A stretch of 64,000 bases of DNA. Origin: a virus. Taxonomy: Duplodnaviria > Heunggongvirae > Uroviricota > Caudoviricetes. Shown here one piece after another: positions 15,069 to 30,423 of the stretch. The position numbers and the translations under genes are program-made. Within the stretch, counting starts at the first letter, position 1; every line of letters begins with the position of its first letter. The DNA lies in IMG/VR virus record IMGVR_UViG_3300017992_000017, positions 33,418 to 97,417 of that record; one strand, given 5' to 3'. The notes under the pieces are model-generated. The model worked only from the letters and a program-made list of their open reading frames with translations, ran no database searches and was not told where the DNA came from.

Positions 15069-15289
15069 AGAGACTGAAGTTCTGCATCGGCGCGACCCTG
15101 TTCTGGTTGGGTCTGCCTTTTGCCGCTCTCTCCATCTTGATTATGTTTGCTCTCGGGGTGGTTGGTCTTCTGGGGATACTGGCCGTCATACTCCTCATGT
15201 CGTTTCCGTGTCTGGTGGGTGGTTGGTTGGCGACGGATGGTTGGTTGGAGAGGATCGAAGCCATGTCTGGTTTGGAGGACAAGGAGTGA
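15065..15289 (+). CDS. small membrane protein (two hydrophobic spans)
   Basis: FCIGATLFWLGLPFAALSILIMFALGVVGLLGILAVILLM. ATGA overlap. Confidence 0.5.
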   Translation: MKRLKFCIGATLFWLGLPFAALSILIMFALGVVGLLGILAVILLMSFPCLVGGWLATDGWLERIEAMSGLEDKE

Positions 15290-15954
15290 AAACTGTCGCG
15301 TTCATGCCAATCAAGCTGAACAACCAGCGTCTCTCTGGGAAGAACACCCGGATGCTGAGAGACAAGCCGCTCTGCCAGTGGGCGCTGAACGAGTTGTTGG
15401 AGTTAAAGAACGACGAAGCGGTGGAGGAGGTCTACGTCTACTGCTCCGACCCTAAGATCGAGGACTATCTCCCGAACGGCGTGGAGCTGCTGTTGCGTAA
15501 CCCGTCGCTCGATCATCCACATGTCCAGGGTAATGACATCTACCGGTCGTTCATTGCCGAGGTACCTGCCGATCTGTACATGCTCCATCATGCGACCAGT
15601 CCCTTCGTCAAGGTTGAGACACTGTACCGGTGTCTTACTGCTGTGTCCTCTGGGAAGCACGACTCGGCCCTGACGGTCAAGGAGATGCACGGCCGGTTCT
15701 GGAGAAACAATGCTCCCGTGTGGCATGACCTGGAGACGGTGGGTCGGACGCAGGACATGACTCCCGTGTACTTCGAGACGGAGGCATGCTACGTCTTTCC
15801 TCCGTATCTTCTGGAGATTTACGGAAGACGGGTAGGGTTTAATCCATACCTGTGTCCCGTCGATGCGAAAGAAGCCATCGATATCGATACCCGGGACGAT
15901 TTTGAGCTGGCTCAGTGCGTGGCATGGCCGAGATATGCGTCAACTAACGGCTGA
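15286..15954 (+). CDS. acylneuraminate/nonulosonate cytidylyltransferase family protein
   Basis: GTG start in a GTGA overlap after an AAGGAG SD. VAFMPIKLNNQRLSGKNTRML.DKPL matches the N-terminal CMP-sugar synthetase motif. Confidence 0.6.
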   Translation: MKTVAFMPIKLNNQRLSGKNTRMLRDKPLCQWALNELLELKNDEAVEEVYVYCSDPKIEDYLPNGVELLLRNPSLDHPHVQGNDIYRSFIAEVPADLYMLHHATSPFVKVETLYRCLTAVSSGKHDSALTVKEMHGRFWRNNAPVWHDLETVGRTQDMTPVYFETEACYVFPPYLLEIYGRRVGFNPYLCPVDAKEAIDIDTRDDFELAQCVAWPRYASTNG

Positions 15955-16669
15955 ATACGATCGACTCCGAGACTCCGTGATCTCCAGTACGAGCACGGAT
16001 GCACAGCTGGAGTGTTTGCACAACGCACACGCAGGGGAGACGGCATACCTGGTGGCTTGCGGACCGTCGACAGGACAGTACCGGGAGGAGTTTCTGCGGC
16101 AGCGACTGGCCAACGAACTGGTCATTGCCGTGAAGCAGGCCATGGATCTCGTACCGGGGATCGCTGACTATCACCTGATCAACGCCGTCAACCGGAAAGA
16201 GTACGACTACACACATCCCCGGCCGATCGTGATGTTCGTCTGCGAGATCGAACAGATGGTCCGGTGTCCGATGCTGCACGACGTTTACACCCCGAGACCA
16301 GGACGAGGGGACAAACACATCTACGTTAGCCAGAGCAAGGATTTCGACAGTTGGACGTTGGACAAGATCATTCGACGTCCTCTGGGTCCGACGATCGTGT
16401 TCACGCTGGGTATGTTCCTGGCCGTGCATCTTGGTGTGTCTCGGATCATCACGTTGGGTGTGGACATGGCGCCGGAGGACATGCGGCATTACTACCCGAG
16501 CAATCTGAATGAGGGACAGATCCTGCATTCGGAGTGGGAGGCCGGGTTGGTTCGGGATGCGCATGAGGACTGGGACCGGTGGTTGCGTAGCCGGGGTGTG
16601 AGGTGGTTACGTGCCGAGTCGGATGAACCCAACGGTTTTCCTTCAATCGAGGAGGTGAGTTTGTTGTGA
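15935..16669 (+). CDS. DUF115 / MptE-like (motility-accessory-factor-like) putative nonulosonate transferase
   Basis: GETAYLVACGPSTGQ...VIAVKQAMDLVPGIADYHL resembles the DUF115 core (a.IvgnGPSL...i.a..a...L...gi.PD). Confidence 0.4.
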   Translation: MRQLTAEYDRLRDSVISSTSTDAQLECLHNAHAGETAYLVACGPSTGQYREEFLRQRLANELVIAVKQAMDLVPGIADYHLINAVNRKEYDYTHPRPIVMFVCEIEQMVRCPMLHDVYTPRPGRGDKHIYVSQSKDFDSWTLDKIIRRPLGPTIVFTLGMFLAVHLGVSRIITLGVDMAPEDMRHYYPSNLNEGQILHSEWEAGLVRDAHEDWDRWLRSRGVRWLRAESDEPNGFPSIEEVSLL

Positions 16670-17031
16670 CAGCTAGGACAGTGGAGCAAACAACTAAGGA
16701 TTGGGGAACGGTGCGTACGCTATTCAATCGTGGCGATACGCGGGTGACTCTCATTGATGGACCACGAAAAGACCGGAACGAGGTTTGCTCGGAGCACGTT
16801 CACGCATATACGCATAACCTCTTCTTTGTGCTTCAGGGGTCGTTGGAGGTTCATTGCTGCAACCGAGGTGTGTGGAGCAACAACCTCCTCCAGCCTGGGG
16901 AGAGCTTTCTCGTACCGGCCGGGATGTGGCATTATTTCCGGATCCTAGAAGACCCTACCCAAGCCATCGAGATCTATTGGTCCGACAGCATGGAAAAGGA
17001 CATCGAACGGAGAAACGATGGCTCGAATTGA
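16666..17031 (+). CDS. cupin-fold protein (sugar-nucleotide isomerase/epimerase-like)
   Basis: HVHAYTHNLFFVLQGSLEV and GESFLVPAGMWHYF give a two-motif cupin signature. Confidence 0.5.
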   Translation: MTARTVEQTTKDWGTVRTLFNRGDTRVTLIDGPRKDRNEVCSEHVHAYTHNLFFVLQGSLEVHCCNRGVWSNNLLQPGESFLVPAGMWHYFRILEDPTQAIEIYWSDSMEKDIERRNDGSN

Positions 17032-17527
17032 CCGGAAACAGATCGTTGCGTGGCTCCGACGTGCGTACCAGGTGGGGATGGATCAGTCGGATGACATGGA
17101 CACGAAGGTCGGTGCGATTCTGGTCGTGCCCTGGATGCCGGAGGACTGCGTTGAGGGTGCGAACCGGATACCTACAGGTCTCTCCCGTAGACCGTCGAGA
17201 AAGAAGCGACCCGACAAGTACCGGTATCTCGTCCACGCGGAGGAAGACTCGATCCTCCAAGCAGCCAAGCTCGGGAGGTCCACCAAGGGACTGACCATGA
17301 TCTGTCCGTGGGCGGCTTGTGCTCGGTGTAGTCGGATGATCGTGCAGGCCGGGATCAAACGGGTGATCAACCACAAGTCTTCCATGGACGCTACGCCAGA
17401 TCGATGGAAGGCCGACATCGAGCTGGGACATTCCATGCTGCGTGAGGCGAATGTTGATCTGATCACGTACGACGGTTGGGTTGAGGACGTGAAATCGAAA
17501 TTCGACGGAAAGGTTTGGTATCCATGA
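17018..17527 (+). CDS. deoxycytidylate (dCMP) deaminase
   Basis: Zinc motifs HAEEDSI and PWAACARCSRMIVQAGIKRV (HAE...PCxxC). Confidence 0.8.
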   Translation: MARIDRKQIVAWLRRAYQVGMDQSDDMDTKVGAILVVPWMPEDCVEGANRIPTGLSRRPSRKKRPDKYRYLVHAEEDSILQAAKLGRSTKGLTMICPWAACARCSRMIVQAGIKRVINHKSSMDATPDRWKADIELGHSMLREANVDLITYDGWVEDVKSKFDGKVWYP

Positions 17528-18126
17528 AGACCGTCGCAATCATCGGCAACTCACATCATCTCCTGGGATCACGTCTCGGGGACAAGATCAACTCGCATGA
17601 CGTGGTGATCCGACTGAACAGCTACAAACTGTATCCCTACCAGGCCGACGTAGGGACCAAGACGGACACCATCGTCCTTGTCCAAAATGCAGACAACAAC
17701 ATGCTGGCTCGCAAGGGGTTGTTGCCGGAGGAGCTCCAGACTTGCAACGAGCTCTGGTTCTCTCGTCCTCTTGGAGATCGTGGGGACATGGACAACGACA
17801 TGCGGGTCATCTTGAAAGCGATCGGCCGGTTCAAGGTGAAGGACTGTCGGTTTCCGGACTCGAAGGGTGTGAAGGAGCTCCGTGCCAAGCTGAACTCACC
17901 GTACTATCCGTCGACAGGGATAGTCACGATCTTCATGGTACTGGAAACGTACCCGGATGCTGACATTCGGATCGCTGGTTTCGGGGATCCACAGGAAACA
18001 GCGTTCAAAGAAGGACATTACTATCCGAACGTGCATGGTTTCAAGTGGATCCATGACGGTCTGGGTGAGCGTGCCTTGATCGATCACCTGGTAGACGAGG
18101 GGAAGATCTCGTGGCTGACGTCGTAG
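17524..18126 (+). CDS. GT29-like sialyltransferase
   Basis: Sialyl motif L-like VAIIGNSHHLLGSRLGDKINSHDVVIRLN. Motif S-like YYPSTGIVTIFMVLETYPDADIRIAGFG. Downstream H...E. ATGA overlap. Confidence 0.55.
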   Translation: MKTVAIIGNSHHLLGSRLGDKINSHDVVIRLNSYKLYPYQADVGTKTDTIVLVQNADNNMLARKGLLPEELQTCNELWFSRPLGDRGDMDNDMRVILKAIGRFKVKDCRFPDSKGVKELRAKLNSPYYPSTGIVTIFMVLETYPDADIRIAGFGDPQETAFKEGHYYPNVHGFKWIHDGLGERALIDHLVDEGKISWLTS

Positions 18127-19091
18127 CAATCATCCCGGCTCGTGGTGGGTCGGAGGGTGTGTGGAAGAAGAACCTGCAGAAGGTCGGTGGCGTGCCGTTG
18201 ATTGCGCGTGCCGTCCGTGCTGCCAAGGATGCTGTGTTGGTTGATAAGGTCGTGGTCTCGTCGGACGACAGCGAGATCCTGGACGTTGCGATAGGTGAGG
18301 GAGCGTCCATCTACTACCAGACTCCGGAGGTGAGTGGTCCGGACGATCTGCAGGAGAAAGCGATTCTTGAGTGGCTGGACGTGACAGGACGCACGGAAGG
18401 AACGCTGGCGATGCTCCAGTGTACGGCGCCGTTCATGACCGGTACGGACATAGATGGTGTGATTGTGGAGATGGACGTAAAGGAGGCTGACTGCTGTTTC
18501 GCTGCATGTCGGTTCCAGCATTTCATTTGGAGACACGACGGATCGAGGCAGGCATACGGGATCAATCACGACTCTTGGACGCGTCAGCAGAGACAGAACC
18601 GACACACGGAGTATTTAGAAGCTGGTAGCGTCTACGCTATGGATATCGCTGGGTTTTTGAAGCACAAACACCGGTTTTTCGGGAGGATCGCTATACACCA
18701 GGTGAATCCATCTCGCGTTTTTGAGATCGACACCTACGAGGAGCTGTTGTTAGCCAACCGGATCGCTGGGCTTCCCGAGCCGTTGTCTGGTCAGCGGGTG
18801 TTCGTGGACATCGACGAGACGATCTGCGAGACGCCATCGACCCGGGACTATACGAAGTCGACACCGAACTTGGACGCTATTGCCGAGATCAACCGGATGC
18901 GTGACCGGGGAGTTGTGGTCACCTATTGGACGGCGCGTGGTTCGGGGTGGCCTTCGGCGAGGGTTGAGGAGCTGACCAGGAGACAGATGAAGGAGTGGGG
19001 TGCCGAGTATGACTACCTGCTGTTCGGCAAACCTGTGTACGACCGGCTCTACGACGACAAGGCAGACTATCAGATACCGGGAGTCAACTGA
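18111..19091 (+). CDS. neuA: N-acylneuraminate cytidylyltransferase fused to a HAD-type phosphatase domain
   Basis: N-terminus AIIPARGGSEGVWKKNLQKVGGVPLI (NeuA/KdsB motif). C-terminus VFVDIDETICET (DxDxT), TYWTARG, GKP...DDKA. Confidence 0.75.
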   Translation: MADVVAIIPARGGSEGVWKKNLQKVGGVPLIARAVRAAKDAVLVDKVVVSSDDSEILDVAIGEGASIYYQTPEVSGPDDLQEKAILEWLDVTGRTEGTLAMLQCTAPFMTGTDIDGVIVEMDVKEADCCFAACRFQHFIWRHDGSRQAYGINHDSWTRQQRQNRHTEYLEAGSVYAMDIAGFLKHKHRFFGRIAIHQVNPSRVFEIDTYEELLLANRIAGLPEPLSGQRVFVDIDETICETPSTRDYTKSTPNLDAIAEINRMRDRGVVVTYWTARGSGWPSARVEELTRRQMKEWGAEYDYLLFGKPVYDRLYDDKADYQIPGVN

Positions 19092-20147
19092 ATGACGGAC
19101 GTGAGGTTGGAAACGGGTGACTGTCGTGAAGTGATGTCGGCGTACGAGGAGAGCACGTTCACAGCGTGCGTGACCGATCCTCCCTACGAGCTGGGTTTCA
19201 TGGGTAAGGACTGGGACCAGGCCGGGGTTTCCTACGATTCCGAGACGTGGCGTGCCGTGTTACGTGTCTTGAAGCCGGGTGCGTTTCTCCTGGCGTTTGG
19301 GGGGACCAGGACGTACCACCGGATGACCTGCGCGATTGAAGATGCCGGGTTTGAGGTTCGGGACTGCATGATGTGGCTGTACGGGAATGGGTTTCCTAAG
19401 TCGCATAACATCTCGAAAGCGATCTCCAAATCAGGAGACAGAACAGCGTCTGACATGTGGGACGGCTACGGGACTGCTCTGAAACCCGCCTGGGAGCCGG
19501 TTGTTGTGGCCATGAAATCCTTGTCTGGGACGTTTGCGAAGAACGCTTTAGAGCAGAGGGTGGCTGGATTGAATGTTGATGGCGGGCGAGTGGAGTATGA
19601 GACCGGCGGCAGTCTCGCCAGCAATCCCTCCTTACGTCGCTCGGTCAAGGGTGGCAACGGCGGCCATATCATCGCCACAGAATCCGAAAGCCGCGAGATG
19701 GTTTCTCACGCCAAAGGCCGCTGGCCTGCGAACCTCCTGCTCGATGAAGAGTCGGGGGCGATGCTGGACAAGCAGAGCGGCGAGCGTCCGGGGTGTAGGT
19801 CGCGCAGCAACGCCAAGCCGGAGAGCAAGTTCCGACCCGGTCAAGGCGAGTACATGCCCCAAGGGCCAATCTACCCGGACACGGGCGGCGCGTCTCGGTT
19901 CTTCTACTGCGCCAAATCCAGCAAGAAAGAACGTGGCGAAGGAAACGACCACCCAACCGTCAAACCACTGAGACTGATGAAACATCTACTGACCCTCGTG
20001 ACTTACCCAGAGCAGAACCTGGTTCTCGACCCGTTCTGCGGATCTGGGACGACCCTACTAGCGTGCCGGGAGATGGGGTTGTCGTGCGTGGGTATCGACT
20101 CGGACCCACATGCTGTTGAAATCGCGGAAGCACGGGGAGTCAACTGA
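19092..20147 (+). CDS. DNA methyltransferase, beta-class N6A/N4C (DPPY)
   Basis: CVTDPPYE (motif IV) near the N-terminus and DPFCGSGTT (motif I) near the C-terminus. Confidence 0.85.
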   Translation: MTDVRLETGDCREVMSAYEESTFTACVTDPPYELGFMGKDWDQAGVSYDSETWRAVLRVLKPGAFLLAFGGTRTYHRMTCAIEDAGFEVRDCMMWLYGNGFPKSHNISKAISKSGDRTASDMWDGYGTALKPAWEPVVVAMKSLSGTFAKNALEQRVAGLNVDGGRVEYETGGSLASNPSLRRSVKGGNGGHIIATESESREMVSHAKGRWPANLLLDEESGAMLDKQSGERPGCRSRSNAKPESKFRPGQGEYMPQGPIYPDTGGASRFFYCAKSSKKERGEGNDHPTVKPLRLMKHLLTLVTYPEQNLVLDPFCGSGTTLLACREMGLSCVGIDSDPHAVEIAEARGVN

Positions 20148-20440
20148 TGAAGCAGGAAACGATCGCACGTCTGGTTCGTGAGTGTCCAGACGATGATGAC
20201 CTGGCGAAACTCCTACACGAGCAGCTGGAATTAGAGAAGTCCATCCGTAAACGTCGGTACGAGATCCGTTCGCAAGAGGAGCAGGTGCGGAAACAGCACG
20301 AGGAAGCGATGAAGACCCTCCGTGACCAGTGGCGGCTACTTTGGGAGAACTGTCCTCATCACGAGACGACGTACCATCCCGATCCGGCAGGTGGTTCGGA
20401 CAGTCATATGGCGTGCAATCTCTGTGGGAAGGAGATGTGA
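20147..20440 (+). CDS. hypothetical protein
   Basis: 97-codon ORF. TGATG coupling to the methyltransferase. Confidence 0.45.
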   Translation: MKQETIARLVRECPDDDDLAKLLHEQLELEKSIRKRRYEIRSQEEQVRKQHEEAMKTLRDQWRLLWENCPHHETTYHPDPAGGSDSHMACNLCGKEM

Positions 20441-20655
20441 TGGTGATGACCCGAGAAGAAGCACGTGAGATTTTGGATCAGGTTGTGGCTAACCAGAAGA
20501 CGCTGACTGCCTGCTCCGGTCCCCACGAGTTCGAGCCGGTGAGTAAGGATAAGAAGTTCTCTCGTAGGTATCGTTGTAAGAAGTGTGGGGGTGAAGTTGA
20601 GAGCCTGCATAAGTACTGGTACGAGCAAGGACTGAAACACGGGAGTAGGAAGTGA
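20440..20655 (+). CDS. hypothetical zinc-ribbon protein
   Basis: CSGPHEF...CKKCGG. ATG overlaps the upstream stop. Confidence 0.4.
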   Translation: MVMTREEAREILDQVVANQKTLTACSGPHEFEPVSKDKKFSRRYRCKKCGGEVESLHKYWYEQGLKHGSRK

Positions 20656-21098
20656 AACACTCCGAGATGTGCAATCTGATGGGACAGGTAGTGACAGTAC
20701 GTCAGCAGCTCTGCGCCCGACGTCAGGGTATCCAGAAGAGATGGCTGTCCGAGAAAGTACCTGAGAGAGCTGGCTGGGTTGTCGGGTTCACGATACGGAT
20801 GGATGGACAAATTGAGCAGGGTGGTGACTTCTACAAGCCTCCGTACTTTCGGGAAACCAAGCGTACACCGTGTCTTCTGGTCGCATACTGGCCAACGGTA
20901 AAGCCTGTGCCGGTTCCTCTTGACGGATACGAGCTAGGTGGAACCCCAACGCCTCCGGACTTTGGCGGGTGGAGAGGAATCAATGAGGAAGCACTCCAGC
21001 GATACAAGCGAGAGCTCCGGGACGACATGATTCGCTGGCCTCGTGACAAGAAAGGCCGGTGGTTGAAACAGACTCCGGTACTTGGGAGCCAAACATGA
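20652..21098 (+). CDS. hypothetical protein
   Basis: 148-codon ORF. GTGA overlap. Confidence 0.45.
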   Translation: MKHSEMCNLMGQVVTVRQQLCARRQGIQKRWLSEKVPERAGWVVGFTIRMDGQIEQGGDFYKPPYFRETKRTPCLLVAYWPTVKPVPVPLDGYELGGTPTPPDFGGWRGINEEALQRYKRELRDDMIRWPRDKKGRWLKQTPVLGSQT

Positions 21099-21442
21099 TT
21101 GAGGTCGCGGTCGATTACACCGTTACGATCCTTGTCTTGGCGATTCTGGTTGTTGGCGCCGGGACGTGCGTGGCGGGTGGTCTCTGGCTGCTGGTGAAGT
21201 TCTTTGACTGGATCCTGGTCGGTGGCAATCCCCGTCTTCCTGGTCGAGGTGCTGTAGCTGTTTGTAGCCAGGGGATCGTTGGGATGATCGAGAACGACAA
21301 ACCTCAACGCGTCCATTACCCGGACGGAAACACGGGAAAAGCGTGGGTCGGACGTGCGATCTGGCCACCTGGTGTGTTTGGTGAGAAGTGGTCGAGTCGG
21401 AATCCGCGTGTGCTGTGTAGGATACCAAAGGAGATGCTGTAA
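21095..21442 (+). CDS. membrane protein
   Basis: ATGA overlap. N-terminal TM segment VTILVLAILVVGAGTCVAGGLWLLV. Confidence 0.45.
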   Translation: MIEVAVDYTVTILVLAILVVGAGTCVAGGLWLLVKFFDWILVGGNPRLPGRGAVAVCSQGIVGMIENDKPQRVHYPDGNTGKAWVGRAIWPPGVFGEKWSSRNPRVLCRIPKEML

Positions 21443-22884: not shown

Positions 22885-22896
22885 GCAGGAGCCTAC

Positions 22897-24463: not shown

Positions 24464-25143
24464 CCTTCGCTATCATCTCCGGTGCTCGATCTGGCACGCA
24501 CATGCTCCGACTGGCGTTGTCGCAGCATCCGGACATCCACGTCTCTCACGAGTTGTTGAATCCTGATCGTTTAGGACACCGGTTTGGCGAGGAGACAGCG
24601 GAGACGATCATCCGGGAGTGGCAGCAAGAGCACTACCGGGAGGTCAAACAGCTAGGGTCTTTGTTGCATCGGGATCTTTACAACCGATCGGAGGAGATAC
24701 CTGGCGACCCCTGGAGAGATGTTCGTCGGAGTCACGCCAAGTTTATCAGCCTCTACCGGTACAACCTCCTCCGCAAGGTTCTCTCCGGGAGGACTGCGTT
24801 TGTCCACAAGAACTGGCAGTGCACGTCTCCCAGGACCAAGGAGTTGCCACCTATCACTCTGGATCCGGACCATCTTGAATCACATTGTCGCAAGGAGTGG
24901 AGGTCTTTCGGTCTGGTGGACGCGAGACTGCCACGTCACTTCGTCATCTCTTATGAAGATCTGGTGAGTGACTGGACGTATCACACGATGGCCATGCAGG
25001 AGTATTTGGGGGTGACGCCGGTTCAGCTCCACCCCCGAACTCACAAACAAGAAACACGCAGCCTCCGGGAAGCCATTGCGAACTACGACGAGATAGCTGA
25101 CCGGGTTTGTGAAATGGGTTGCGAAGACTGGTTAGAGGAGTAG
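24460..25143 (+). CDS. sulfotransferase (Stf0-like)
   Basis: ATGA overlap. FAIISGARSGTHML (5'-PSB-like loop) and ISLYRYNLLRKVLS (3'-PB-like R...S). Confidence 0.5.
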   Translation: MTFAIISGARSGTHMLRLALSQHPDIHVSHELLNPDRLGHRFGEETAETIIREWQQEHYREVKQLGSLLHRDLYNRSEEIPGDPWRDVRRSHAKFISLYRYNLLRKVLSGRTAFVHKNWQCTSPRTKELPPITLDPDHLESHCRKEWRSFGLVDARLPRHFVISYEDLVSDWTYHTMAMQEYLGVTPVQLHPRTHKQETRSLREAIANYDEIADRVCEMGCEDWLEE

Positions 25144-25145
25144 TC

Positions 25146-25892
25146 ATGCCAACTGTTAGCGTAATCTTGACGTCCCACAACCACGGACCGTTTCTGCGTC
25201 AAGCCATCGAGAGCGTGCTGGCTCAGACGTACACGGACTTCGAGCTATTGATTCTGGATGATGCGTCTACGGATGGGTCAGCAGACATTGCACGGGAGTA
25301 TGTCGGATCCAACGCCTTTCTCCAGGACTACCAAGAAAAGGCATCCAGTCTCGGGGTTGTCCTGAACCGTAGCATTCGTCTGGCTCGTGGAGACTACTGG
25401 GTCTGGGCACCTTCAGATGACGTGCTCAAACCGGATCTCCTAGAGAAGAAGATGGCCACGGCACAGGAGCATCCCGGCGCCGTCCTCTACTCAGACTGGG
25501 AGTACATCAATGAGCGGGGGGACGTGACCGGGACCAAACGTCTACCGGAATGGACCGCCGAGGATATCGCAAGGATGGTGTGGGAGAAGTCCATGCTCGG
25601 GTTCACCGGCATCTGGATACCCATGTCCGTCTTCGATGAGGTGGGGAACTGGCCGACGCACATGCTCTTCTCCGAGGACTTCTCCTGGTTCGTTCGAGCT
25701 ACGATCCACGGAATACCTTTCATCAACTGTCCTGAGGTCCTCTTCCAGAAACGGCTCAACCCTCTGCAGACAGCCAGTAAGGTCGGGACGAAACGCATCC
25801 TTGAGCTGGTACCCGCAATCCATAGTGAGCTCCGTTGGTACCAACATCTCTACCAACAACACCATCCTGACTACGAGGTGCCGAGTCAATGA
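25146..25892 (+). CDS. GT2 family glycosyltransferase
   Basis: VSVILTSHNHGPFLRQAIESVLAQTYTDFELLILDDASTDGS. Confidence 0.8.
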   Translation: MPTVSVILTSHNHGPFLRQAIESVLAQTYTDFELLILDDASTDGSADIAREYVGSNAFLQDYQEKASSLGVVLNRSIRLARGDYWVWAPSDDVLKPDLLEKKMATAQEHPGAVLYSDWEYINERGDVTGTKRLPEWTAEDIARMVWEKSMLGFTGIWIPMSVFDEVGNWPTHMLFSEDFSWFVRATIHGIPFINCPEVLFQKRLNPLQTASKVGTKRILELVPAIHSELRWYQHLYQQHHPDYEVPSQ

Positions 25893-26728
25893 GGGTTGTC
25901 TTCTTCTGGGGAACGTCTCCGTTGTCGTGGATGAGGTACGCCACGATCGCCAGCTTCCGGAAACTCAATCTGGACTGGGAGATCGAGCTGTATCTCTACC
26001 ACCACCAGCACGTCAAGAAGTACTGGACCGACTCCCCGGTGCAGGATTTTTCCGAGTACCGAGGAGCCGACTACTTTCCTTTGCTCACGGACCTTGGTGT
26101 TCGGGTCATTCCGTGGGAGTTGCCGGAGGAGCTGCAGGACAAGAAGCACGTCATCGGTCCTTCCCACGCCAGTAACTTCTTCAAGTGGAGCTGGCTGTCC
26201 GAGAACGTGGGTGTCTACTGCGACCTGGACATCCTCTGGACGTCCCCGCTTACGGACTGGCTTGACTGGGTGGCCACGTACGATGCTGCTCTTGCTTACA
26301 CGCCGGAGTACTTCTCGATCGGCCTTCTCTGGTCGGGACAGCAGCCGAACCCCGTCTACAAGGATATCCTGGCCGAGAGTTACCGCACCTTCACGCACAC
26401 CAAGTACCAGAGTGCCGGGGTCGTGGCACTCTATCGGTTACTGCAGAAGTTCGACCCAGCGTACCGTGAGCACCCGTGGGATAAGGATCTGCTCGCGAGG
26501 TACGACAACGCATACCTCTTCGACATGGACTGGGTCTATCCTTGGCGATTCAACCAGATGGAGGAGGTTTTCAACAAGAAGCACGAGGTCATCCCACCGA
26601 TGTGCAAGGGGATCCACTGGTACGCCGGGTCTCCAATCGCACAGAAGTACAACAACCTGATCACCGAGGACACGTTGGATCAGTACGACAATACGTTCAC
26701 CCATTTCGCGAGACGGGTCCTTGGTTGA
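25889..26728 (+). CDS. DXD glycosyltransferase (GT32 / Gly_transf_sug-like)
   Basis: FKWSWLSENVGVYCDLDILW. Paralog of the next gene. Confidence 0.45.
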   Translation: MRVVFFWGTSPLSWMRYATIASFRKLNLDWEIELYLYHHQHVKKYWTDSPVQDFSEYRGADYFPLLTDLGVRVIPWELPEELQDKKHVIGPSHASNFFKWSWLSENVGVYCDLDILWTSPLTDWLDWVATYDAALAYTPEYFSIGLLWSGQQPNPVYKDILAESYRTFTHTKYQSAGVVALYRLLQKFDPAYREHPWDKDLLARYDNAYLFDMDWVYPWRFNQMEEVFNKKHEVIPPMCKGIHWYAGSPIAQKYNNLITEDTLDQYDNTFTHFARRVLG

Positions 26729-27536
26729 TCCTAAGAAACATATCGTCTTCTTCTGGTCCGGTCGTTCGCTGTCTTGGCTGCGATACCTGACGATCTACTC
26801 GTTTCGTGTCCTGAACCCGGAGTGGAAGATCTCCCTGTACCTGTGTCATACGAGTCTGGTGACGACTTGGCTCGATCATAACCGTCTCGACTTCAGTGAG
26901 TATGAAGGTGAGGACTATCTTCCCAGGCTCCAGTTTCTAGGGGTCGATGTCCAGCAGTGGGAGTTGCCTCCGGAGATCTGTAGTGCCACACCTCCCCACG
27001 CGTGCGATCTATTCGAGTGGCAGTGGCTGTCGGAGAACGTCGGGTACTACGCCGACATGGACATCCTGTGGGTCCGACCGATGAAGGTCCCGGACTCTGA
27101 TGCAGCGATTGTGTACGGCAAGCAATTCAGTATCGGCTTGGTGTGGTCGGGTGTGGCTCCGAATCCTATGTTCCGGGACATCTACCAGGAGAGCCTCCGT
27201 ACGTACACACCCGCCGTCTACCAGAGTGCCGGGGTCGTTCCCATCTACCAGCTCTTAGGACATTCCGGTCCCGAGGTTGACCTGTCCATACCCTGGTTCG
27301 AGCGATTACGAGAGAAGTATCCCACGGTCTCCAAGCTGCCGTTCCCCATGATTCATCCGTGGGATCATGAGCAGCTGGAAGCCATGTACGACGAGCTACA
27401 TACCGAGGTACCAACAGACTGTGTCGGAATTCATTGGTACGGTGCTGCTCCAAGGTCCCAGACGTTCAACCAGGAATACGGACCGAGGACGCAGCAGGAT
27501 AATACGCTAAGTCATTTTGCGAGACGGGTGGCATGA
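26721..27536 (+). CDS. DXD glycosyltransferase (GT32-like), tandem paralog
   Basis: FEWQWLSENVGYYADMDILW and colinear similarity to 25889..26728 (VFFW, SIGL.WSG..PNP, YQSAGVV, GIHWY, HFARRV). Apparent TTG start. Confidence 0.45.
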   Translation: MVDPKKHIVFFWSGRSLSWLRYLTIYSFRVLNPEWKISLYLCHTSLVTTWLDHNRLDFSEYEGEDYLPRLQFLGVDVQQWELPPEICSATPPHACDLFEWQWLSENVGYYADMDILWVRPMKVPDSDAAIVYGKQFSIGLVWSGVAPNPMFRDIYQESLRTYTPAVYQSAGVVPIYQLLGHSGPEVDLSIPWFERLREKYPTVSKLPFPMIHPWDHEQLEAMYDELHTEVPTDCVGIHWYGAAPRSQTFNQEYGPRTQQDNTLSHFARRVA

Positions 27537-28303
27537 AACCCCTGGTGTCCGTGGTGGTGGCGACACGCAACAAGGACAAGATCCTGGCCAAGGTGCTGGC
27601 TAGTATCTACCGTCAGTCGTGTGCCTATCCCTTGGAGGTCGTGGTCGTTGATGACGGATCCACGGACAACACCCGGGAGACCTGCCTCGCGTACCCGGAC
27701 TTGCGATACATCAGGTTGGAGGGTGGGGAGTACCGAAACTCCTGCTTTGCTCGAAACTGTGGGTACTGGGCAGCGAACGGCATGGCGTTGGTACTGCAGT
27801 CGGATGATGTGGTGCATGTCTCCGAGCGTGCCGTCGAGAAGCTGGTCGATCGGTTGGGACCTGGCGAGTTTACGATTGCCACGGTCTACAACTACGACCC
27901 CGAGACCAACGCACCGGTCCTGATGTACACGGGGACGGGATGGAAGCGACCGTTCTTCTTCCTGGGAGCGATACGGACCGAGGACATCTATGCAGTCGGT
28001 GGGAATGAGGAGGAGCTATTGGATGTGGGGGTTGGGTTCGATGATACGTGGTTGGCCGACTGTCTCACGCTAGGACAAGGACTAACCCCGGTATTTATGC
28101 ACACCGTTCTTGGATATCACCAGAATCACCGTCCCCTGATCCCCGGCATCATGAGGGAGAAACACGCCGACGCGAAACTCTGGTACGAGGCAAAGGTGCG
28201 TACGGGAAGGTTCGTGACCTCTACCGGCGCGTGGACAGAACGAATGGATCCTGACGAATGGGTACGGCATTATCACGTGTGTCAAGATCTATCGAGGTAC
28301 TAA
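27533..28303 (+). CDS. GT2 family glycosyltransferase
   Basis: VSVVVATRNKDKILAKVLASIYRQSCAYPLEVVVVDDGSTDNT. Confidence 0.75.
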   Translation: MKPLVSVVVATRNKDKILAKVLASIYRQSCAYPLEVVVVDDGSTDNTRETCLAYPDLRYIRLEGGEYRNSCFARNCGYWAANGMALVLQSDDVVHVSERAVEKLVDRLGPGEFTIATVYNYDPETNAPVLMYTGTGWKRPFFFLGAIRTEDIYAVGGNEEELLDVGVGFDDTWLADCLTLGQGLTPVFMHTVLGYHQNHRPLIPGIMREKHADAKLWYEAKVRTGRFVTSTGAWTERMDPDEWVRHYHVCQDLSRY

Positions 28304-28407
28304 TGTCCGAAGACGTCTACTACCTGACTCCGAAAGCCATCATGGTCGGGGTGCTCAGTGAATATATCCCGCATGAAGAACTTGTAAACGCAGAGGACGA
28401 GGAATGA
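28303..28407 (+). CDS. small ORF (34 aa), translationally coupled on both sides
   Basis: TAATG overlap with the GT2 stop and ATGA overlap with the neuB start. Translation MSEDVYYLTPKAIMVGVLSEYIPHEELVNAEDEE. Not on the ORF track (under 60 aa). Confidence 0.3.
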   Translation: MSEDVYYLTPKAIMVGVLSEYIPHEELVNAEDEE

Positions 28408-29279
28408 GCACCACGATCGTAGCTGAGATCGGGATCAATCACAACGGCTGTCTCGCATTCGCCAAAGAGATGATCGACGCAGCGTATGAGGCTGGTGCCG
28501 ACGTGGTGAAATTCCAGAAGCGTACCCTGCCTGCCGCCGTTCCCATCCACCAGCGACACGCACTCAAAGAGACGCCTTGGGGACAGATGACGTACCTCGA
28601 CTACCGAAACAAGCTGGAGTTCGGGTTCGAGGAGTACTGCACCCTCGATCGGTGGTGTGCCAGGTACCCGATCTCCTGGACTGCGTCGGTGTGGGATGCG
28701 GAGGCTGCCAAGTTCATCGCTCAGTTTGACGTGCCGTACCTCAAGATCCCCTCAGCTGCCATTACGGACGCTCGACTCCTAGATGTCGTACGAGCCACGG
28801 GTAAGCCGGTCGTGATGAGCACCGGCATGTCCACGCTGGAGGAGGTAGACGCTGCGATCAACGTGCTCATGGGTAGCCGGTACTGTGACGGAGACTCCTG
28901 CCGTCGTACGCGTCAGCTACCACCGGCTCAGCTCACGCTCCTGCATTGTGTGAGCACCTATCCGACAGCCATCCCAGACATCAACCTCCGGGTCATGGAC
29001 ACGCTACGAGCTCACACGGGACTCCCAGTAGGCTATTCAGGACACGAGGTAGGGATGGCTGTGAGTATTGCCGCTGTTGCTCGTGGTGCCTGCATGATCG
29101 AGAGACACTTCACCACGTCGCAGACCATGTGGGGTACGGATCAGCGAGCATCTATGGAGCCGGGGGATTTTGCTGCACTGGTCAACGGTATCCGATCGGT
29201 GGAGAGAGCACTCGGTGATGGGGTGAAGATTGTCTGCACCCGAGAACTTCCTATTCGACAGAAGCTACGGGGTGTGTGA
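28404..29279 (+). CDS. neuB: N-acetylneuraminate (nonulosonate) synthase, NeuB family
   Basis: IVAEIGINHNGCLAFAKEMIDAAYEAGADVVKFQ and downstream GYSGHE. At 291 aa it seems to lack a full C-terminal SAF domain. Confidence 0.85.
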   Translation: MSTTIVAEIGINHNGCLAFAKEMIDAAYEAGADVVKFQKRTLPAAVPIHQRHALKETPWGQMTYLDYRNKLEFGFEEYCTLDRWCARYPISWTASVWDAEAAKFIAQFDVPYLKIPSAAITDARLLDVVRATGKPVVMSTGMSTLEEVDAAINVLMGSRYCDGDSCRRTRQLPPAQLTLLHCVSTYPTAIPDINLRVMDTLRAHTGLPVGYSGHEVGMAVSIAAVARGACMIERHFTTSQTMWGTDQRASMEPGDFAALVNGIRSVERALGDGVKIVCTRELPIRQKLRGV

Positions 29280-29566
29280 TGACTACCGTTATGTCCAATA
29301 CGCTGTTCGACATCGTCTCCGAGATCCACGAGAGGCTACAGCAACAGATCGACGAGGGGGTTGTCAGATGGGAAGTGCTCGATACCGGAGGAGCAGCACC
29401 AGTACCGTGTGGGGTCGTCTTTCGGTACGAGTTTGTGTGGAACAATCACAAATACATATGGAAACATGCTTTCTCAGCCATCGAGCTCCTGTGTTGTCCG
29501 GATCCTATCTGGGTGGCTGAGTGGTTGGCCGATAGCTGGTTGCATGATGCTAAGGCTGTGAAATGA
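29276..29566 (+). CDS. hypothetical protein
   Basis: 96-codon ORF with 4-nt overlaps on both sides. Confidence 0.45.
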   Translation: MMTTVMSNTLFDIVSEIHERLQQQIDEGVVRWEVLDTGGAAPVPCGVVFRYEFVWNNHKYIWKHAFSAIELLCCPDPIWVAEWLADSWLHDAKAVK

Positions 29567-30423
29567 AGATTGTCCACTACAAGAAGACCCCCCTGGCTTA
29601 CGCTCCGGACTGGTTGTCGATGGCAATCAACAAGTACTCGGAGCATGAGTCTTCGGTCGTCACGTATCCGAAGCAGCTCCCCAAGCCAGCCAAGGATACG
29701 GTCGTCCATTTTCACAACCGGTTCGTCCCCTACGCCGGTCCCTGTCTGATCCAATACCATTCGGAGCCAGACGAACCGAACCTGATGCATCCGAAAGACC
29801 ACCCCACCGCTCCAGAACGTCGGTTGGTGGTGGCTCATTATCACCCCACGCTCCCCGAATACAAGGACATGCACCCGGTCCGTAACGTGGTGGACTTCAG
29901 ACGTCCTCAGTTTGCATACACCCCGGTTCGGAAGTTCAAGGTCGGTTACTCTCCCTCAGTCACGCGTCGGATCAGCAGGTGGTACGACAAGGGATATGAG
30001 AAGACAGTACAGATCCTCCAGCGTGTTGCCAAAGAAGTCCCGGAGATGGAGGTCGACATTATTGCCGGGGTTTGTCTGGATGAGTGTCTCCGGCGTAAAC
30101 GGGACTGCTCCGTGCTGATCGATGAGTGCGTGACCGGGAGCTATCATCGGAGTGGACTGGAAGGACTGGCGTTGGGGAAGGTGACGATAGCCGGTATGGA
30201 TGCTGCCGTGGTTGATGTGTTTCAGAACGTGTCGGGATCTGTTCTGATTCCGTTTACGATCTGTGGCATCGACTACCTGTGCAACAAGCTGATCCGTCTG
30301 TCCAAGGATATTGATGCGTTGAGAGAACGAGGACTGCACAACCGGCAGTGGTTTGAGAATTTCTGGGCGCCTGAACAGATCGTGGCCGAGTACGTGGAGC
30401 ACTACAAGGAGGTGCTGGCATGA
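29563..30423 (+). CDS. hypothetical protein, possible GT-B-fold glycosyltransferase
   Basis: The C-terminal half (VGYSPS...ILQRVAKEVPEMEVDIIAG...GSYHRSGLEGLALGKVTIAG) resembles the GT1/GT4 C-domain. Weak. Confidence 0.3.
   Translation: MKIVHYKKTPLAYAPDWLSMAINKYSEHESSVVTYPKQLPKPAKDTVVHFHNRFVPYAGPCLIQYHSEPDEPNLMHPKDHPTAPERRLVVAHYHPTLPEYKDMHPVRNVVDFRRPQFAYTPVRKFKVGYSPSVTRRISRWYDKGYEKTVQILQRVAKEVPEMEVDIIAGVCLDECLRRKRDCSVLIDECVTGSYHRSGLEGLALGKVTIAGMDAAVVDVFQNVSGSVLIPFTICGIDYLCNKLIRLSKDIDALRERGLHNRQWFENFWAPEQIVAEYVEHYKEVLA

What the first reader, a model, noticed from the sequence alone, without database searches (positions are those of the whole stretch)
15286..30423. Phage-borne island for synthesis, activation, transfer and tailoring of a nonulosonic (sialic-acid-like) sugar
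One strand, mostly linked by 1-4 nt stop/start overlaps, carries the following genes:
- a stand-alone cytidylyltransferase (15286)
- a DUF115/Maf-like protein (15935)
- a cupin (16666)
- a GT29-like transferase (17524)
- a NeuA-HAD fusion (18111)
- a radical SAM enzyme (23486)
- a Stf0-like sulfotransferase (24460)
- GT2 (25146), two GT32-like paralogs (25889, 26721), GT2 (27533)
- NeuB (28404)
- a possible GT-B protein (29563)

That covers condensation, CMP activation and several transfer and tailoring steps. I see no NeuC/PseB/LegB-type early enzyme. The HAD phosphatase fused to NeuA hints at a 9-phosphate (Kdn/Neu5Ac-9-P-type) route fed by host sugar phosphates. The island sits inside the replication/DNA-modification region and is interleaved with a dCMP deaminase and a DNA methyltransferase. 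The acceptor (virion proteins, host envelope or even DNA) is therefore open.
Basis: partly seen in the sequence, partly recalled or inferred. Interest (0 to 1): 0.8.

Follow-up and report, generated by a model that had tools for sequence, protein, structure and literature searches.

The report
Phage-encoded sialic-acid-like (Kdn-type) sugar pathway
An uncultured phage carries the genes to make, activate and attach a nine-carbon sialic-acid-like sugar, most likely Kdn made from ordinary host sugar phosphate, including an animal-type (GT29) sialyltransferase; similar modules are widespread in viral metagenomes, but I found no paper describing them.

Summary
On one strand between 15.3 and 30.4 kb lie a NeuB-family synthase, a CMP-sugar synthetase fused to an intact small HAD phosphatase, a second cytidylyltransferase and a compact GT29 sialyltransferase with all four sialylmotifs. 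There are also a DUF115/Maf-like protein, two GT2s, two paralogous DXD proteins, a sulfotransferase, a radical SAM enzyme and a cupin. Ten labels pass curated thresholds. DUF115 and "GT32-like" are weak, and "GT-B" has no support.

The island is in two blocks, split by 4.4 kb of unrelated genes. The replicon is a roughly 106-kb uncultured phage.

The 9-phosphate, Kdn-type route is now better supported. There are no early amino-sugar enzymes. The synthetase's best solved relative is the Prymnesium CMP-Kdn synthetase, and it carries that enzyme's gatekeeper arginine. GT29 + SAF-less NeuB + NeuA-HAD recurs in unrelated phages. Bacterial relatives pair this NeuB clade with NeuA-HAD fusions.

All enzymes appear soluble and no lipid-carrier or export genes are present. 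I favour virion-protein glycosylation, but the acceptor is unproven; host envelope remodelling is the main rival and DNA is unlikely.

At least 513 IMG/VR stretches encode NeuB relatives, so this is a new variant within a widespread viral gene class.

The parts
15286..15954 (+). Second, divergent cytidylyltransferase (CT1-type, 222 aa).
   Evidence: Pfam CTP_transf_3 36.3 bits, cutoff 22.6. Weak PseF/KdsB similarity. Homologs at 31-32% identity lie near SAF-less NeuB genes in viral locus L090 and in 27 bacterial loci. Its substrate is unknown.
15935..16669 (+). DUF115/MptE-like (Maf-like) protein, a candidate second nonulosonic-acid transferase. It has only the catalytic core (244 aa; 230 aa if it starts at 15977).
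16666..17031 (+). Small cupin (121 aa), a possible sugar-tailoring or isomerase enzyme.
   Evidence: Cupin_2 39.9 bits. PDB hits are generic cupins. A 31%-identical cupin sits in the L001 NeuB cluster.
17018..17527 (+). dCMP deaminase, interleaved with the sugar genes but probably not part of the sugar pathway.
   Evidence: dCMP_cyt_deam_1 49.7 bits. ThyX lies upstream of the window, so this gene fits dTMP supply.
17524..18126 (+). Compact soluble GT29-like sialyltransferase (200 aa).
   Evidence: Glyco_transf_29 80.7 bits, E 1.5e-22. It aligns to porcine ST3Gal-I 2wnb with sialylmotifs L, S, III (HYY) and VS (H177..E182). It belongs to a family of 180-215 aa proteins: 625 representatives at E<=1e-3. 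It has no TM segment.
18111..19091 (+). Bifunctional CMP-nonulosonate synthetase (residues 1 to about 220) fused to a small HAD phosphatase (residues about 229-326).
   Evidence: CTP_transf_3 61.3 bits. The best PDB hit is 9t4z, Prymnesium CMP-Kdn synthetase, E 5e-23. Arg188 aligns with the Kdn gatekeeper Arg196, and Glu15 replaces the Lys found in Neu5Ac enzymes. The HAD domain hits 9iqw at E 3.7e-10 and all four HAD motifs are present. A full-length homolog (42.5% identity) is found in L077.
19092..23457 (+). Intervening block that is not part of the pathway: N6/N4 DNA methyltransferase, four small unknown ORFs, a phrog_4400 protein, and two ECF-type sigma factors (22363-22884 and 22897-23457).
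23486..24463 (+). Radical SAM enzyme with a Cys-rich C-terminal part; role unknown, possibly sugar tailoring.
   Evidence: Radical_SAM 59.7 bits. Only the radical SAM core matches other families. An unrelated radical SAM gene also abuts a GT29-like gene in L014.
24460..25143 (+). Sulfotransferase.
   Evidence: Sulfotransfer_3 35.2 bits, cutoff 27. An N-terminal GARSGTH PAPS-loop-like motif is present. There is no PDB hit by sequence, so 'Stf0-like' is untested.
25146..25892 (+). GT2 glycosyltransferase a (soluble).
   Evidence: Glycos_transf_2 81.9 bits. Relatives at 23-31% identity lie near bacterial NeuA/NeuB cassettes in 19 loci. No TM segment.
25889..26728 (+). DXD-motif protein, paralog a (tentatively GT32-like).
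   Evidence: Faint Gly_transf_sug hit, E 0.0099, 17 bits, below cutoff. 48% identical to the next gene.
26721..27536 (+). DXD-motif protein, paralog b.
   Evidence: No profile hit. It shares the DxD, GIHWY and other motifs with paralog a.
27533..28303 (+). GT2 glycosyltransferase b (soluble).
   Evidence: Glycos_transf_2 71.2 bits. No TM segment.
28404..29279 (+). NeuB-family nonulosonate synthase lacking the C-terminal SAF/AFP domain (291 aa), with a private 19-aa insert.
   Evidence: NeuB 261.4 bits. TIGR03569 scores 271 bits, below its 399.65 equivalog cutoff; PseI scores 180. PDB hits are 6ncs, 1xuu and 8h2c. Conserved core residues and the two metal-binding His are seen in the alignment. 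The exact protein occurs in several independent metagenome assemblies.
29279..30423 (+). Two unknown ORFs (95 aa and 286 aa), overlapping each other by 4 nt and the first overlapping NeuB by 1 nt; function unknown.
   Evidence: No Pfam, NCBIfam, PHROG or PDB hit. The model has pLDDT 35. Overlaps.

Best explanation
The phage encodes a short-cut pathway to a CMP-activated nonulosonic acid, most likely Kdn or another sugar without a C5 acetamido group.

Proposed steps:
1. The SAF-less NeuB condenses PEP with a host hexose 6-phosphate, most simply mannose 6-phosphate.
2. The HAD domain fused to NeuA removes the 9-phosphate.
3. The NeuA domain makes the CMP-sugar.
4. The compact GT29-like enzyme, and probably the DUF115-like enzyme, transfer the sugar onto an acceptor glycan.
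5. That glycan is assembled in the cytoplasm by the two GT2s and the two DXD paralogs.
6. The sulfotransferase, radical SAM enzyme and cupin tailor it.

Status of the claims:
- Shown: family assignments, intact motifs, and recurrence of the module.
- Inferred: substrate, order of steps, and acceptor.

I favour phage virion proteins as the acceptor. The reasons are that every enzyme appears soluble, no lipid-carrier, flippase, polymerase or ligase genes are present, and in other phages the same module abuts tail or portal genes. My confidence by layer is about 0.85 for the pathway, about 0.55 for a Kdn-type sugar, and about 0.4 for virion proteins as acceptor.
For: Family assignments:
- NeuB, NeuA and GT29 score above curated cutoffs and have PDB homologs.
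- All four HAD motifs are present and the domain hits 9iqw.

Absence of early enzymes:
- No NeuC/PseB/PseC-type enzyme was found among the window ORFs scanned.
- By contrast, flanks of other viral NeuBs often hold Polysacc_synt_2 and DegT enzymes.

Kdn signature in NeuA:
- The best PDB hit is the Kdn-specific PpNeuA.
- Arg188 aligns with its gatekeeper Arg196, whereas Neu5Ac-type enzymes have L, F, F or I.
- The published R196L mutation switches preference to Neu5Ac, and Kdn-only bacteria including Streptomyces have Arg there (PMC12934254).
- Streptomyces NeuA neighbours of 48-50%-identical NeuBs share the HRFFGR motif.

Precedent for the route:
- The Man-6-P to Kdn-9-P to Kdn to CMP-Kdn pathway is established (PMC6200933).

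Recurrence of the module:
- L077: GT29, then NeuA-HAD, then NeuB, directly after the tape-measure and tail genes.
- L015: T4-type portal, GT92-GT29-GT29 fusion, 291-aa NeuB, NeuA-KdsC-type HAD.
- LR756508: four GT29-like genes, NeuB and the small HAD.
- 44 of 80 bacterial loci carry NeuA-KdsC-type HAD fusions.

Other points:
- No TM segments in any glyco-enzyme.
- The same arrangement is seen in several independent assemblies.
Against: - No biochemical data exist for any of these proteins.
- The single-residue Kdn predictor has known exceptions: trout CMAS has Leu yet prefers Kdn, and zebrafish has Thr.
- The divergent CT1-type enzymes also show an Arg at this column, so it may be a clade trait rather than a specificity marker.
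- The small HAD family is common in cultured T4-like and cyano-phages, next to phosphoheptose isomerase. Its presence alone therefore does not prove a NulO-9-P phosphatase.
- NeuB does not reach the NeuB_NnaB equivalog cutoff, and nothing tests its sugar substrate.
- In this phage the genes sit in the replication/regulation region, not next to recognised virion genes. An integrase is present, which also fits lysogenic conversion.
- The roles of the second cytidylyltransferase, cupin, radical SAM enzyme and the 286-aa ORF are unexplained.
Confidence: 0.55

Rival explanations
1. The pathway is the same, but the acceptor is a host envelope glycoconjugate (LPS/LOS, capsule, or a teichulosonic-acid-like wall polymer). 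The phage would remodel the cell surface during lysogeny or infection, for example for superinfection exclusion or to mask receptors.
For: An integrase is present at 60706-61650. The genes lie with early/replication genes on the same strand. The closest cellular NeuB/NeuA cassettes, with GT2a-like neighbours, are chromosomal in Chloroflexota, Streptomyces and Planctomycetes. Phage glycosyltransferase clusters have been interpreted as O-chain modification in pelagimyophages (PMC7029224). A phage-encoded enzyme that modifies capsule nonulosonic acid is known in Acinetobacter (PMC6586298).
Against: The island has no priming phosphoglycosyltransferase, flippase, polymerase, ligase or membrane-anchored GT, and all enzymes are predicted soluble. 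In L077 and L015 the module sits beside tail and portal genes. Six or seven transferases is a large set for a simple surface modification.
Confidence: 0.35
2. The sugar is not Kdn. It is either Neu5Ac made from ManNAc-6-P, or a Leg/Pse-type sugar made from precursors supplied by a host that already makes them. In the second case the fused HAD would have another role.
For: NeuB scores best against the NeuB_NnaB model (271 bits) and also matches PseI (180 bits). Most other viral NeuB loci contain PseB/PseC-like enzymes and DUF115 proteins. The small HAD family occurs in other sugar contexts. The Kdn gatekeeper rule has exceptions.
Against: There are no amino-sugar enzymes in the window. The NeuA gatekeeper Arg clashes with a C5 N-acetyl group in PpNeuA, and PseF has Ile at that position. 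NeuA-phosphatase fusions of two different HAD types recur beside this NeuB clade.
Confidence: 0.3
3. The sugar is attached to phage DNA as a hypermodification.
For: The island is interleaved with a dCMP deaminase and a DNA methyltransferase.
Against: ThyX lies upstream, so the deaminase fits ordinary dTMP synthesis. No hydroxymethylase-type enzyme that would create a DNA handle was seen among the ORFs scanned. None of the related viral modules examined is tied to DNA-modification genes. GT29 and DUF115 enzymes are known to act on glycans and proteins (general knowledge).
Confidence: 0.03
4. The region is an assembly chimera or host-derived cargo on a non-phage element, and the genes are not a working viral pathway.
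For: No capsid, terminase or tail genes were recognised in about 84 kb examined. There is no near match in GenBank phages.
Against: The same gene order was assembled independently in JGI, ENA and Logan data. GC content is uniform at 0.53-0.60. Genes overlap tightly on one strand, continuous with phage replication genes. Several ORFs match PHROG families. All catalytic motifs are intact.
Confidence: 0.04

Closest known systems
Kdn pathway of Bacteroides thetaiotaomicron (BT1713-1715) and Prymnesium parvum: Kdn-9-P synthase, Kdn-9-P phosphatase, CMP-Kdn synthetase (PMC6200933, PMC12934254).
   Same: It has the same three activities: a NeuB-family synthase, a HAD phosphatase and a CMAS. No amino-sugar steps are needed. 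The NeuA domain's best solved relative is PpNeuA, and it shares the gatekeeper Arg.
   Different: The phosphatase is a roughly 100-aa 'capsule biosynthesis phosphatase'-type HAD fused to NeuA, not a separate KdsC-type enzyme. NeuB lacks the SAF domain. The substrate is untested. The genes are on a phage and sit in two blocks.
Eukaryotic GT29 sialyltransferases, for example porcine ST3Gal-I (PDB 2wnb).
   Same: It passes the Pfam GT29 model and has sialylmotifs L, S, III and VS, including the His and Glu of motif VS.
   Different: It is 200 aa with no signal anchor or stem, and it lacks the conserved L/S-motif cysteine pair, so it appears cytoplasmic (from the sequence; no TM segment). It belongs to a compact environmental clade found in phages. 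Donor and acceptor are unknown.
Maf/DUF115 flagellin nonulosonic-acid transferases and GT42 Cst-I/II (the Maf biology is from my own knowledge; PDB 5mu5 and 2p56 are among the fold hits).
   Same: It has a GPS nucleotide-binding motif. It is tightly adjacent to NeuB in many viral loci. Profile relatives carry PF01973 or PF06002. Weak fold hits go to MptE, Maf and Cst-I.
   Different: Only the 244-aa core is present, without Maf's flanking substrate-binding domains. It scores below the Pfam cutoff. hhalign gives only 44% probability. There is no flagellin context.
Bacterial two-gene cassettes of NeuA-KdsC-type HAD fusion plus SAF-less NeuB (Chloroflexota, Planctomycetes, Actinomycetes including Streptomyces).
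   Same: NeuB is 45-52% identical and NeuA 35-42% identical. NeuA is fused to a phosphatase in 44 of 80 loci, and GT2a-like neighbours occur.
   Different: The HAD subfamily differs: none of the 80 bacterial loci has the small HAD. None of them has a homolog of the GT29-like or DUF115-like gene.
Virus-encoded glycosylation machineries: chlorovirus and mimivirus glycan synthesis, mycobacteriophage virion glycosylation (from my own knowledge), and LPS-like glycosyltransferase clusters in cyano- and pelagimyophages (PMC7029224).
   Same: They are clusters of soluble viral glycosyltransferases and sugar-nucleotide enzymes that act in the infected cell.
   Different: The published systems I know of do not use a nonulosonic acid with a GT29-type transferase. 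My literature searches found no such phage system.

Membership tests
NeuB family (nonulosonate synthase, PF03102) | Profile match above the curated cutoff. | tested here: met
   261.4 bits against a cutoff of 22.1, covering the whole 241-position model.
NeuB family (nonulosonate synthase, PF03102) | Conserved TIM-barrel core motifs, including the two metal-binding His. | tested here: met
   AEIGxNH, VKFQK, KIxS, STGM, CxSxYP, GYSGHE and ERHFT are conserved with NmNeuB and 6ncs and with four viral relatives.
N-acetylneuraminate synthase equivalog (TIGR03569) | Score above the equivalog cutoff, and a C-terminal SAF/antifreeze-like domain. | tested here: not met
   271 bits against a cutoff of 399.65. 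The match ends at model position 274 of 329, and the protein is 291 aa with no SAF domain.
CMP-sialic acid synthetase (CMAS/NeuA, PF02348) | Profile match, N-terminal PARGGS...KN CTP-binding motif, and homology to solved CMAS structures. | tested here: met
   61.3 bits against a cutoff of 22.6. PDB hits 9t4z, 1qwj, 1eyr and 6ifd at E 5e-23 to 5e-16. The motif IIPARGGSEGVWKKN is present.
Kdn-specific CMAS (PpNeuA type) | Arginine at the gatekeeper position (PpNeuA Arg196) in place of Leu or Phe. | tested here: met
   Arg188 aligns with Arg196 in both the HMMER and MAFFT alignments. Mouse has L, N. meningitidis F, V. cholerae F and 9ftb I. The rule comes from PMC12934254.
Kdn-specific CMAS (PpNeuA type) | Preference for Kdn over Neu5Ac in an enzyme assay. 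| not testable with these tools
   This needs recombinant enzyme.
HAD phosphatase superfamily | Four catalytic motifs: DxDxT, S/T, K, and DD. | tested here: met
   DIDET, TARG, GKP and YDDKA are present. The domain hits PDB 9iqw (E 3.7e-10) and 1xpj. No Pfam model hit it.
Kdn-9-P / Neu5Ac-9-P phosphatase (BT1713, NANP) | Membership of the KdsC/YrbI-type or NANP-type HAD subfamily. | tested here: not met
   The domain belongs to the small 'capsule biosynthesis phosphatase' type. The KdsC-type fusion is what L015 and 44 bacterial loci have instead. A functional analogy is inferred from the fusion, not shown.
GT29 sialyltransferases (PF00777) | Profile match above cutoff, and sialylmotifs L, S, III and VS. 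| tested here: met
   80.7 bits against a cutoff of 23. Motifs aligned to ST3Gal-I: IIGNS...INSHDVVIRLN, YPSTGIV...IAGFG, GHYY, and H177DGLGE182.
GT29 sialyltransferases (PF00777) | Type II membrane topology and the conserved L-S motif disulfide. | tested here: not met
   There is no TM segment. Both cysteines are replaced, V4 in place of the motif-L Cys, and the protein is only 200 aa.
DUF115 / MptE-like (Maf) family (PF01973) | Profile match above the gathering score. | tested here: not met
   20.8 bits against a cutoff of 34.6, covering only model positions 138-167. The 33%-identical L001 homolog scores 32 bits on positions 8-60.
DUF115 / MptE-like (Maf) family (PF01973) | Fold similar to Maf, MptE and sialyltransferases. 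| tested here: inconclusive
DUF115 / MptE-like (Maf) family (PF01973) | Genomic linkage to nonulosonic-acid synthesis genes. | tested here: met
   Homologs occur in 34 of 80 viral NeuB loci, at a median of 82 bp from NeuB.
GT32 (DXD sugar-binding region, PF04488) | Profile match above cutoff. | tested here: not met
   Paralog a scores 17 bits (E 0.0099) against a cutoff of 23. Paralog b has no hit. A shared DxD motif is present.
GT-B fold glycosyltransferase (ORF 29563) | Any profile, sequence or fold similarity to GT-B enzymes. | tested here: inconclusive
   There are no Pfam, NCBIfam, PHROG or PDB hits. The single-sequence model has pLDDT 35 and is unusable.
Sulfotransferase (PF13469), Stf0-like | Profile match and PAPS-binding motifs; specific similarity to Stf0. 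| tested here: inconclusive
   Sulfotransfer_3 scores 35.2 bits against a cutoff of 27, but only over residues 31-71. No PDB sequence hit, including Stf0.

The most novel reading that the evidence does not exclude
An uncultured bacteriophage coats its own virion proteins with a sulfated, Kdn-capped glycan, made entirely in the host cytoplasm from mannose 6-phosphate. It does so with a soluble, disulfide-free GT29 sialyltransferase. That would be the first nonulosonic-acid-decorated phage particle and the first functional GT29 enzyme from a prokaryotic virus. It would also open the question of whether this animal-type sialyltransferase family has deep roots in bacteria and phages.
Probability: 0.25. 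Interest if true: 0.8.

Novelty: new variant of a known kind. Interest (0 to 1): 0.62.

Why it matters
Nonulosonic acids are key recognition sugars on animal cells and on many bacterial surfaces, and GT29 is generally treated as a eukaryotic sialyltransferase family.

This analysis shows three things:
- A phage can carry a self-sufficient, three-activity route to a CMP-nonulosonic acid that needs only central host metabolites.
- The route is coupled to compact, cytoplasmic GT29-like and DUF115-like transferases.
- The module recurs in unrelated phages, while NeuB relatives occur in at least 513 IMG/VR stretches but in no cultured phage in the collection searched (only three records match, none a cultured phage).

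If the product decorates virions, it would extend virion glycosylation to sialic-acid-like sugars, with possible effects on adsorption, particle stability and aggregation, or evasion of host or grazer recognition. If it remodels the host surface, it is a new kind of phage-driven surface conversion.

The small soluble enzymes (a 200-aa GT29, a NeuA-phosphatase fusion, a SAF-less synthase) are also attractive for chemoenzymatic synthesis of Kdn glycoconjugates. They give a concrete, testable entry point into the origin of GT29.

Tried and rejected
- A megablast of the island against GenBank phages found no match.
- Single-protein scans of IMG/VR with the GT29-like and Maf-like proteins found nothing. 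A 7-sequence GT29 alignment scan also found nothing, and the 38-sequence alignment was too divergent to scan.
- The word-indexed homolog search returned only the query itself for the GT29-like and Maf-like proteins. Full HMMER, and a profile that included L001 sequences, were needed.
- The Maf-like structure prediction (pLDDT 56) gave only suggestive fold hits. The 286-aa ORF model (pLDDT 35) was unusable, so the 'GT-B' label could not be tested.
- PDB sequence searches for the cupin, radical SAM enzyme and sulfotransferase gave only generic hits or none.
- The promoter and terminator scan found no more sites than chance. The single best sigma-70-like site lies at 14164-14191.
- Seven literature searches found no paper describing a phage nonulosonic-acid pathway or a phage GT29. 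One apparent hit used 'CMP' to mean cyanomyophage, and another matched the author name 'Neubauer'.
- A look-up of the integrase with the long TTG start was not on record.
- I rejected DNA hypermodification. ThyX plus dCMP deaminase explains the nucleotide genes, and no hydroxymethylase was seen.
- I considered and down-weighted 'HAD near NeuB proves a 9-P route', because the small HAD family is common in cultured T4-like and cyano-phages beside phosphoheptose isomerase. The NeuA-HAD fusions are the stronger argument.
- The host was not identified. PolA is only about 30% identical to any cultured phage.

Full report
**What is there.** Between 15.3 and 30.4 kb, all long ORFs lie on the + strand and are tightly packed. 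Of 25 junctions, 14 are 1-4 nt overlaps, 4 are longer overlaps, 2 have no gap and 5 are gaps of 2-100 nt.

- CTP_transf_3 at 15286 (36.3 bits) and at 18111 (61.3 bits)
- Cupin_2 at 16666
- dCMP deaminase at 17018
- Glyco_transf_29 at 17524 (80.7 bits, E 1.5e-22)
- N6/N4 DNA methylase at 19092
- Radical_SAM at 23486
- Sulfotransfer_3 at 24460
- Glycos_transf_2 at 25146 and at 27533
- NeuB at 28404 (261 bits)

Three labels are weaker:
- The 'Maf-like' ORF reaches only 20.8 bits on MptE-like/DUF115, against a cutoff of 34.6.
- The two 'GT32-like' genes are real paralogs (48% identity), but only one gives a faint DXD-region hit.
- The 'possible GT-B' ORF at 29563 has no detectable relative in any library, and its single-sequence model is unusable.

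The island is in two blocks. Block A is 15286-19091 and block B is 23486-30423. Between them lie a DNA methyltransferase, four small unknown ORFs, a phrog_4400 protein and two ECF-type sigma factors.

**Is it a phage?**
- The left third of the window encodes a C5 DNA methylase, sliding clamp, PolA with a UDG domain, SSB, UvsX-like recombinase and SbcCD.
- Upstream of the window lie a helicase, DnaB, a 5'-3' exonuclease and ThyX.
- To the right are Thg1, SpoU and an integrase. Just beyond the window are MazG, CsrA, peptide deformylase and an RGP/GT75-like gene.
- GC content is uniform.
- The same gene order was assembled independently in JGI, ENA and Logan data, and the longest contig is 105,746 bp.
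- There is no near relative among GenBank phages. PolA is only about 30% identical to any cultured phage.
- No virion genes were recognised in the roughly 84 kb I could see. This is the main reservation about the 'phage' label.

**The core pathway.**
- NeuB is 291 aa and lacks the C-terminal SAF domain. It keeps the conserved core motifs and both metal-binding histidines, and carries a private 19-residue insert. It does not reach the Neu5Ac-synthase equivalog cutoff (271 against 399.65 bits).
- The 326-aa protein at 18111 is a genuine fusion. Residues 4-218 align to solved CMP-sialic acid synthetases. Residues 231-318 align to PDB 9iqw ('capsule biosynthesis protein', E 3.7e-10) and 1xpj. All four HAD motifs are present: DIDET, TARG, GKP, YDDKA.
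- The GT29-like protein aligns to porcine ST3Gal-I through sialylmotifs L, S, III (HYY) and VS (H177..E182). It has neither the conserved cysteine pair nor a membrane anchor.
- A full HMMER search of 1.84 billion representatives found 625 relatives at E<=1e-3. Many are 180-215 aa proteins with the same motifs, so a compact GT29-like clade exists.

**Which sugar?**
- No NeuC-, PseB- or PseC-type enzyme was found among the window ORFs scanned.
- By contrast, a random sample of 150 ORFs flanking other viral NeuB genes contains Polysacc_synt_2 (7), DegT aminotransferases (6) and many epimerases/dehydratases. This phage therefore carries a short-cut version.
- The best solved relative of its NeuA domain is 9t4z, the Kdn-specific CMP-Kdn synthetase of Prymnesium parvum.
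- That study showed Arg196 is the gatekeeper for Kdn. The R196L mutation switches preference to Neu5Ac. Kdn-only bacteria (Klebsiella ozaenae, Brevibacterium, Streptomyces albus) have Arg there, Neu5Ac enzymes commonly have Leu, and PseF has Ile.
- In both HMMER and MAFFT alignments the window enzyme has Arg188 at this column. Mouse, N. meningitidis, V. cholerae and 9ftb enzymes have L, F, F and I.
- It also has Glu where Neu5Ac enzymes have an invariant Lys. The paper notes that this Lys is missing in Kdn enzymes.
- The six other viral NeuA homologs for which that column could be read all have the Arg.
- Streptomyces NeuA genes that sit next to 48-50%-identical SAF-less NeuB genes share the motif HRFFGR.
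- The Man-6-P + PEP to Kdn-9-P to Kdn to CMP-Kdn route is established in B. thetaiotaomicron and P. parvum.

Caveats on the sugar identity:
- The rule rests on one residue and has exceptions.
- The divergent second cytidylyltransferase family also shows an Arg at this column.
- The NeuB substrate is untested.

**Recurrence.**
- The trio of GT29 + SAF-less NeuB + NeuA-phosphatase is not a one-off.
- L077 (IMG/VR) has a tape-measure gene and five unknown ORFs that I take to be tail-region genes. These are followed directly by GT29, a full-length NeuA-HAD homolog (42.5% identity) and NeuB (51%).
- L015 (27% GC) has a T4-type portal, a GT92-GT29-GT29 fusion, a 291-aa NeuB, and a NeuA fused to a different, KdsC-type HAD.
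- The published 484-kb phage LR756508 has four GT29-like genes, NeuB and the small HAD within 5 kb.
- Two different HAD types fused to NeuA beside the same NeuB clade is convergent evidence that a phosphatase step belongs to the pathway. So is the presence of KdsC-type fusions in 44 of the 80 closest bacterial loci.
- One point weakens this. The small HAD family alone is common in cultured T4-like and cyano-phages, next to phosphoheptose isomerase. Only the fusions carry real weight.

**How common?**
- Among the best 80 loci, 58 have a DUF115/MptE-like gene and 34 have a homolog of the window's Maf-like protein, at a median of 82 bp from NeuB.
- In the same 80 loci, 36 have the small HAD, 32 have two NeuB genes, and 6 have a GT29-like gene.
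- None of those 6 has a DUF115-like gene, whereas the window phage has both.
- In GenBank phages, NeuB matches only three records (two uncultured viral genomes and one labelled Moritella viscosa), none of them a cultured phage. The GT29-like gene matches one record and the Maf-like gene none.
- Seven full-text searches found no description of such phage systems.

**Mechanism and acceptor.**
- Shown: family membership, intact catalytic motifs, predicted solubility of every glyco-enzyme, and conserved linkage.
- Inferred: the order of steps, the Man-6-P substrate, and the acceptor.
- The island has no priming phosphoglycosyltransferase, flippase, polymerase, ligase or membrane-anchored GT.
- In L077 and L015 the module abuts tail and portal genes.
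- DUF115/Maf enzymes are cytoplasmic protein O-glycosyltransferases (general knowledge).
- I therefore favour glycosylation of phage virion proteins, at about 0.4.
- Remodelling of a host envelope glycan is close behind, at about 0.35. It is supported by the integrase, the early-region location and the chromosomal bacterial cassettes.
- DNA is unlikely, because ThyX plus dCMP deaminase explains the nucleotide genes and no hydroxymethylase was seen.
- Still unexplained: the second cytidylyltransferase, the cupin, the radical SAM enzyme, the sulfotransferase's target, and ORFs 29279-30423.

**Verdict.** This is a new variant within a large viral gene class that I could not find described in the literature. 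The combination here is a SAF-less NeuB, a NeuA-HAD fusion, a compact cytoplasmic GT29 and a DUF115-like transferase, together with a private set of tailoring enzymes.

Noticed in passing
window 31060-31134 (+); also 11767-11835: A tRNA-Thr(TGT) gene lies just after the island. A 124-aa ORF (31031-31405) that overlaps it is probably spurious. ARAGORN also reports an odd tRNA-like call with a two-base anticodon at 11767-11835.
   Followed up: partly
window 22363-22884 and 22897-23457 (+): Two adjacent ECF-type sigma factors sit directly upstream of the second sugar block. They may drive its transcription.
   Followed up: no
window 28404-29279, residues about 158-176: This phage's NeuB has a private Cys/Arg-rich 19-residue insert (SRYCDGDSCRRTRQLPPAQ). 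It is absent from four viral relatives.
   Followed up: partly
L179 = LR756508.1 322-327 kb: A published, unannotated 484-kb 'huge phage' carries four GT29-like genes, a NeuB and the small HAD phosphatase in one cluster.
   Followed up: partly
L020-L098 (IMG/VR NeuB loci): At least 513 viral stretches encode NeuB relatives. In the best 80 loci, GT29-like and DUF115-like genes never occur together, whereas the window phage has both. Many loci also hold PseB/PseC-like enzymes, so they look Pse/Leg-type rather than Kdn-type.
   Followed up: partly
INPHARED phages, e.g. NC_047838 168018-168299 and NC_015279 157412-157708: Homologs of the small HAD domain (38-46% identity) occur in 378 GenBank phage records. 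These include T4-like coliphages and cyanophages, where the gene sits next to phosphoheptose isomerase and is mostly annotated as hypothetical.
   Followed up: no
L018:5642-6583 (about 3 kb beyond the right end of the window): A PF03214 (RGP/GT75-like) gene lies near MazG, CsrA, peptide deformylase and a trypsin-like protease. It is a further possible sugar-related gene on the same phage.
   Followed up: no
window 4112-6562 (+): The family A DNA polymerase carries an N-terminal UDG-like domain. A C5 DNA methylase (838-2124) and an N6/N4 methylase (19092-20147) are also present.
   Followed up: no
window 58358-58915, 59417-60175, 60706-61650 (+); 37213-38097 (-): A SpoU-type RNA methylase, a Thg1-like tRNA-His guanylyltransferase and a tyrosine integrase lie together. 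A transposase-like ORF lies in the minus-strand block.
   Followed up: no
window 42509-43525 (-): A 337-aa protein with OCRE/PKAT_KLD-type short repeats, of unknown role.
   Followed up: no
window 14164-14191 (+): The best sigma-70-like promoter match of the region (TTGACA-16-TAGAAT, 11 of 12) lies near the 3' end of SbcC, just upstream of the ORF run that leads into the island. The total number of promoter-like sites is not above chance.
   Followed up: partly
L099, L100 (Chloroflexota genomes): Some bacterial loci carry two SAF-less NeuB genes. In L099 one sits beside a NeuA-KdsC-type HAD fusion, and L100 carries a CT1-type cytidylyltransferase. This hints at two parallel nonulosonic-acid routes. 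The phage has both types of cytidylyltransferase but only one NeuB.
   Followed up: partly
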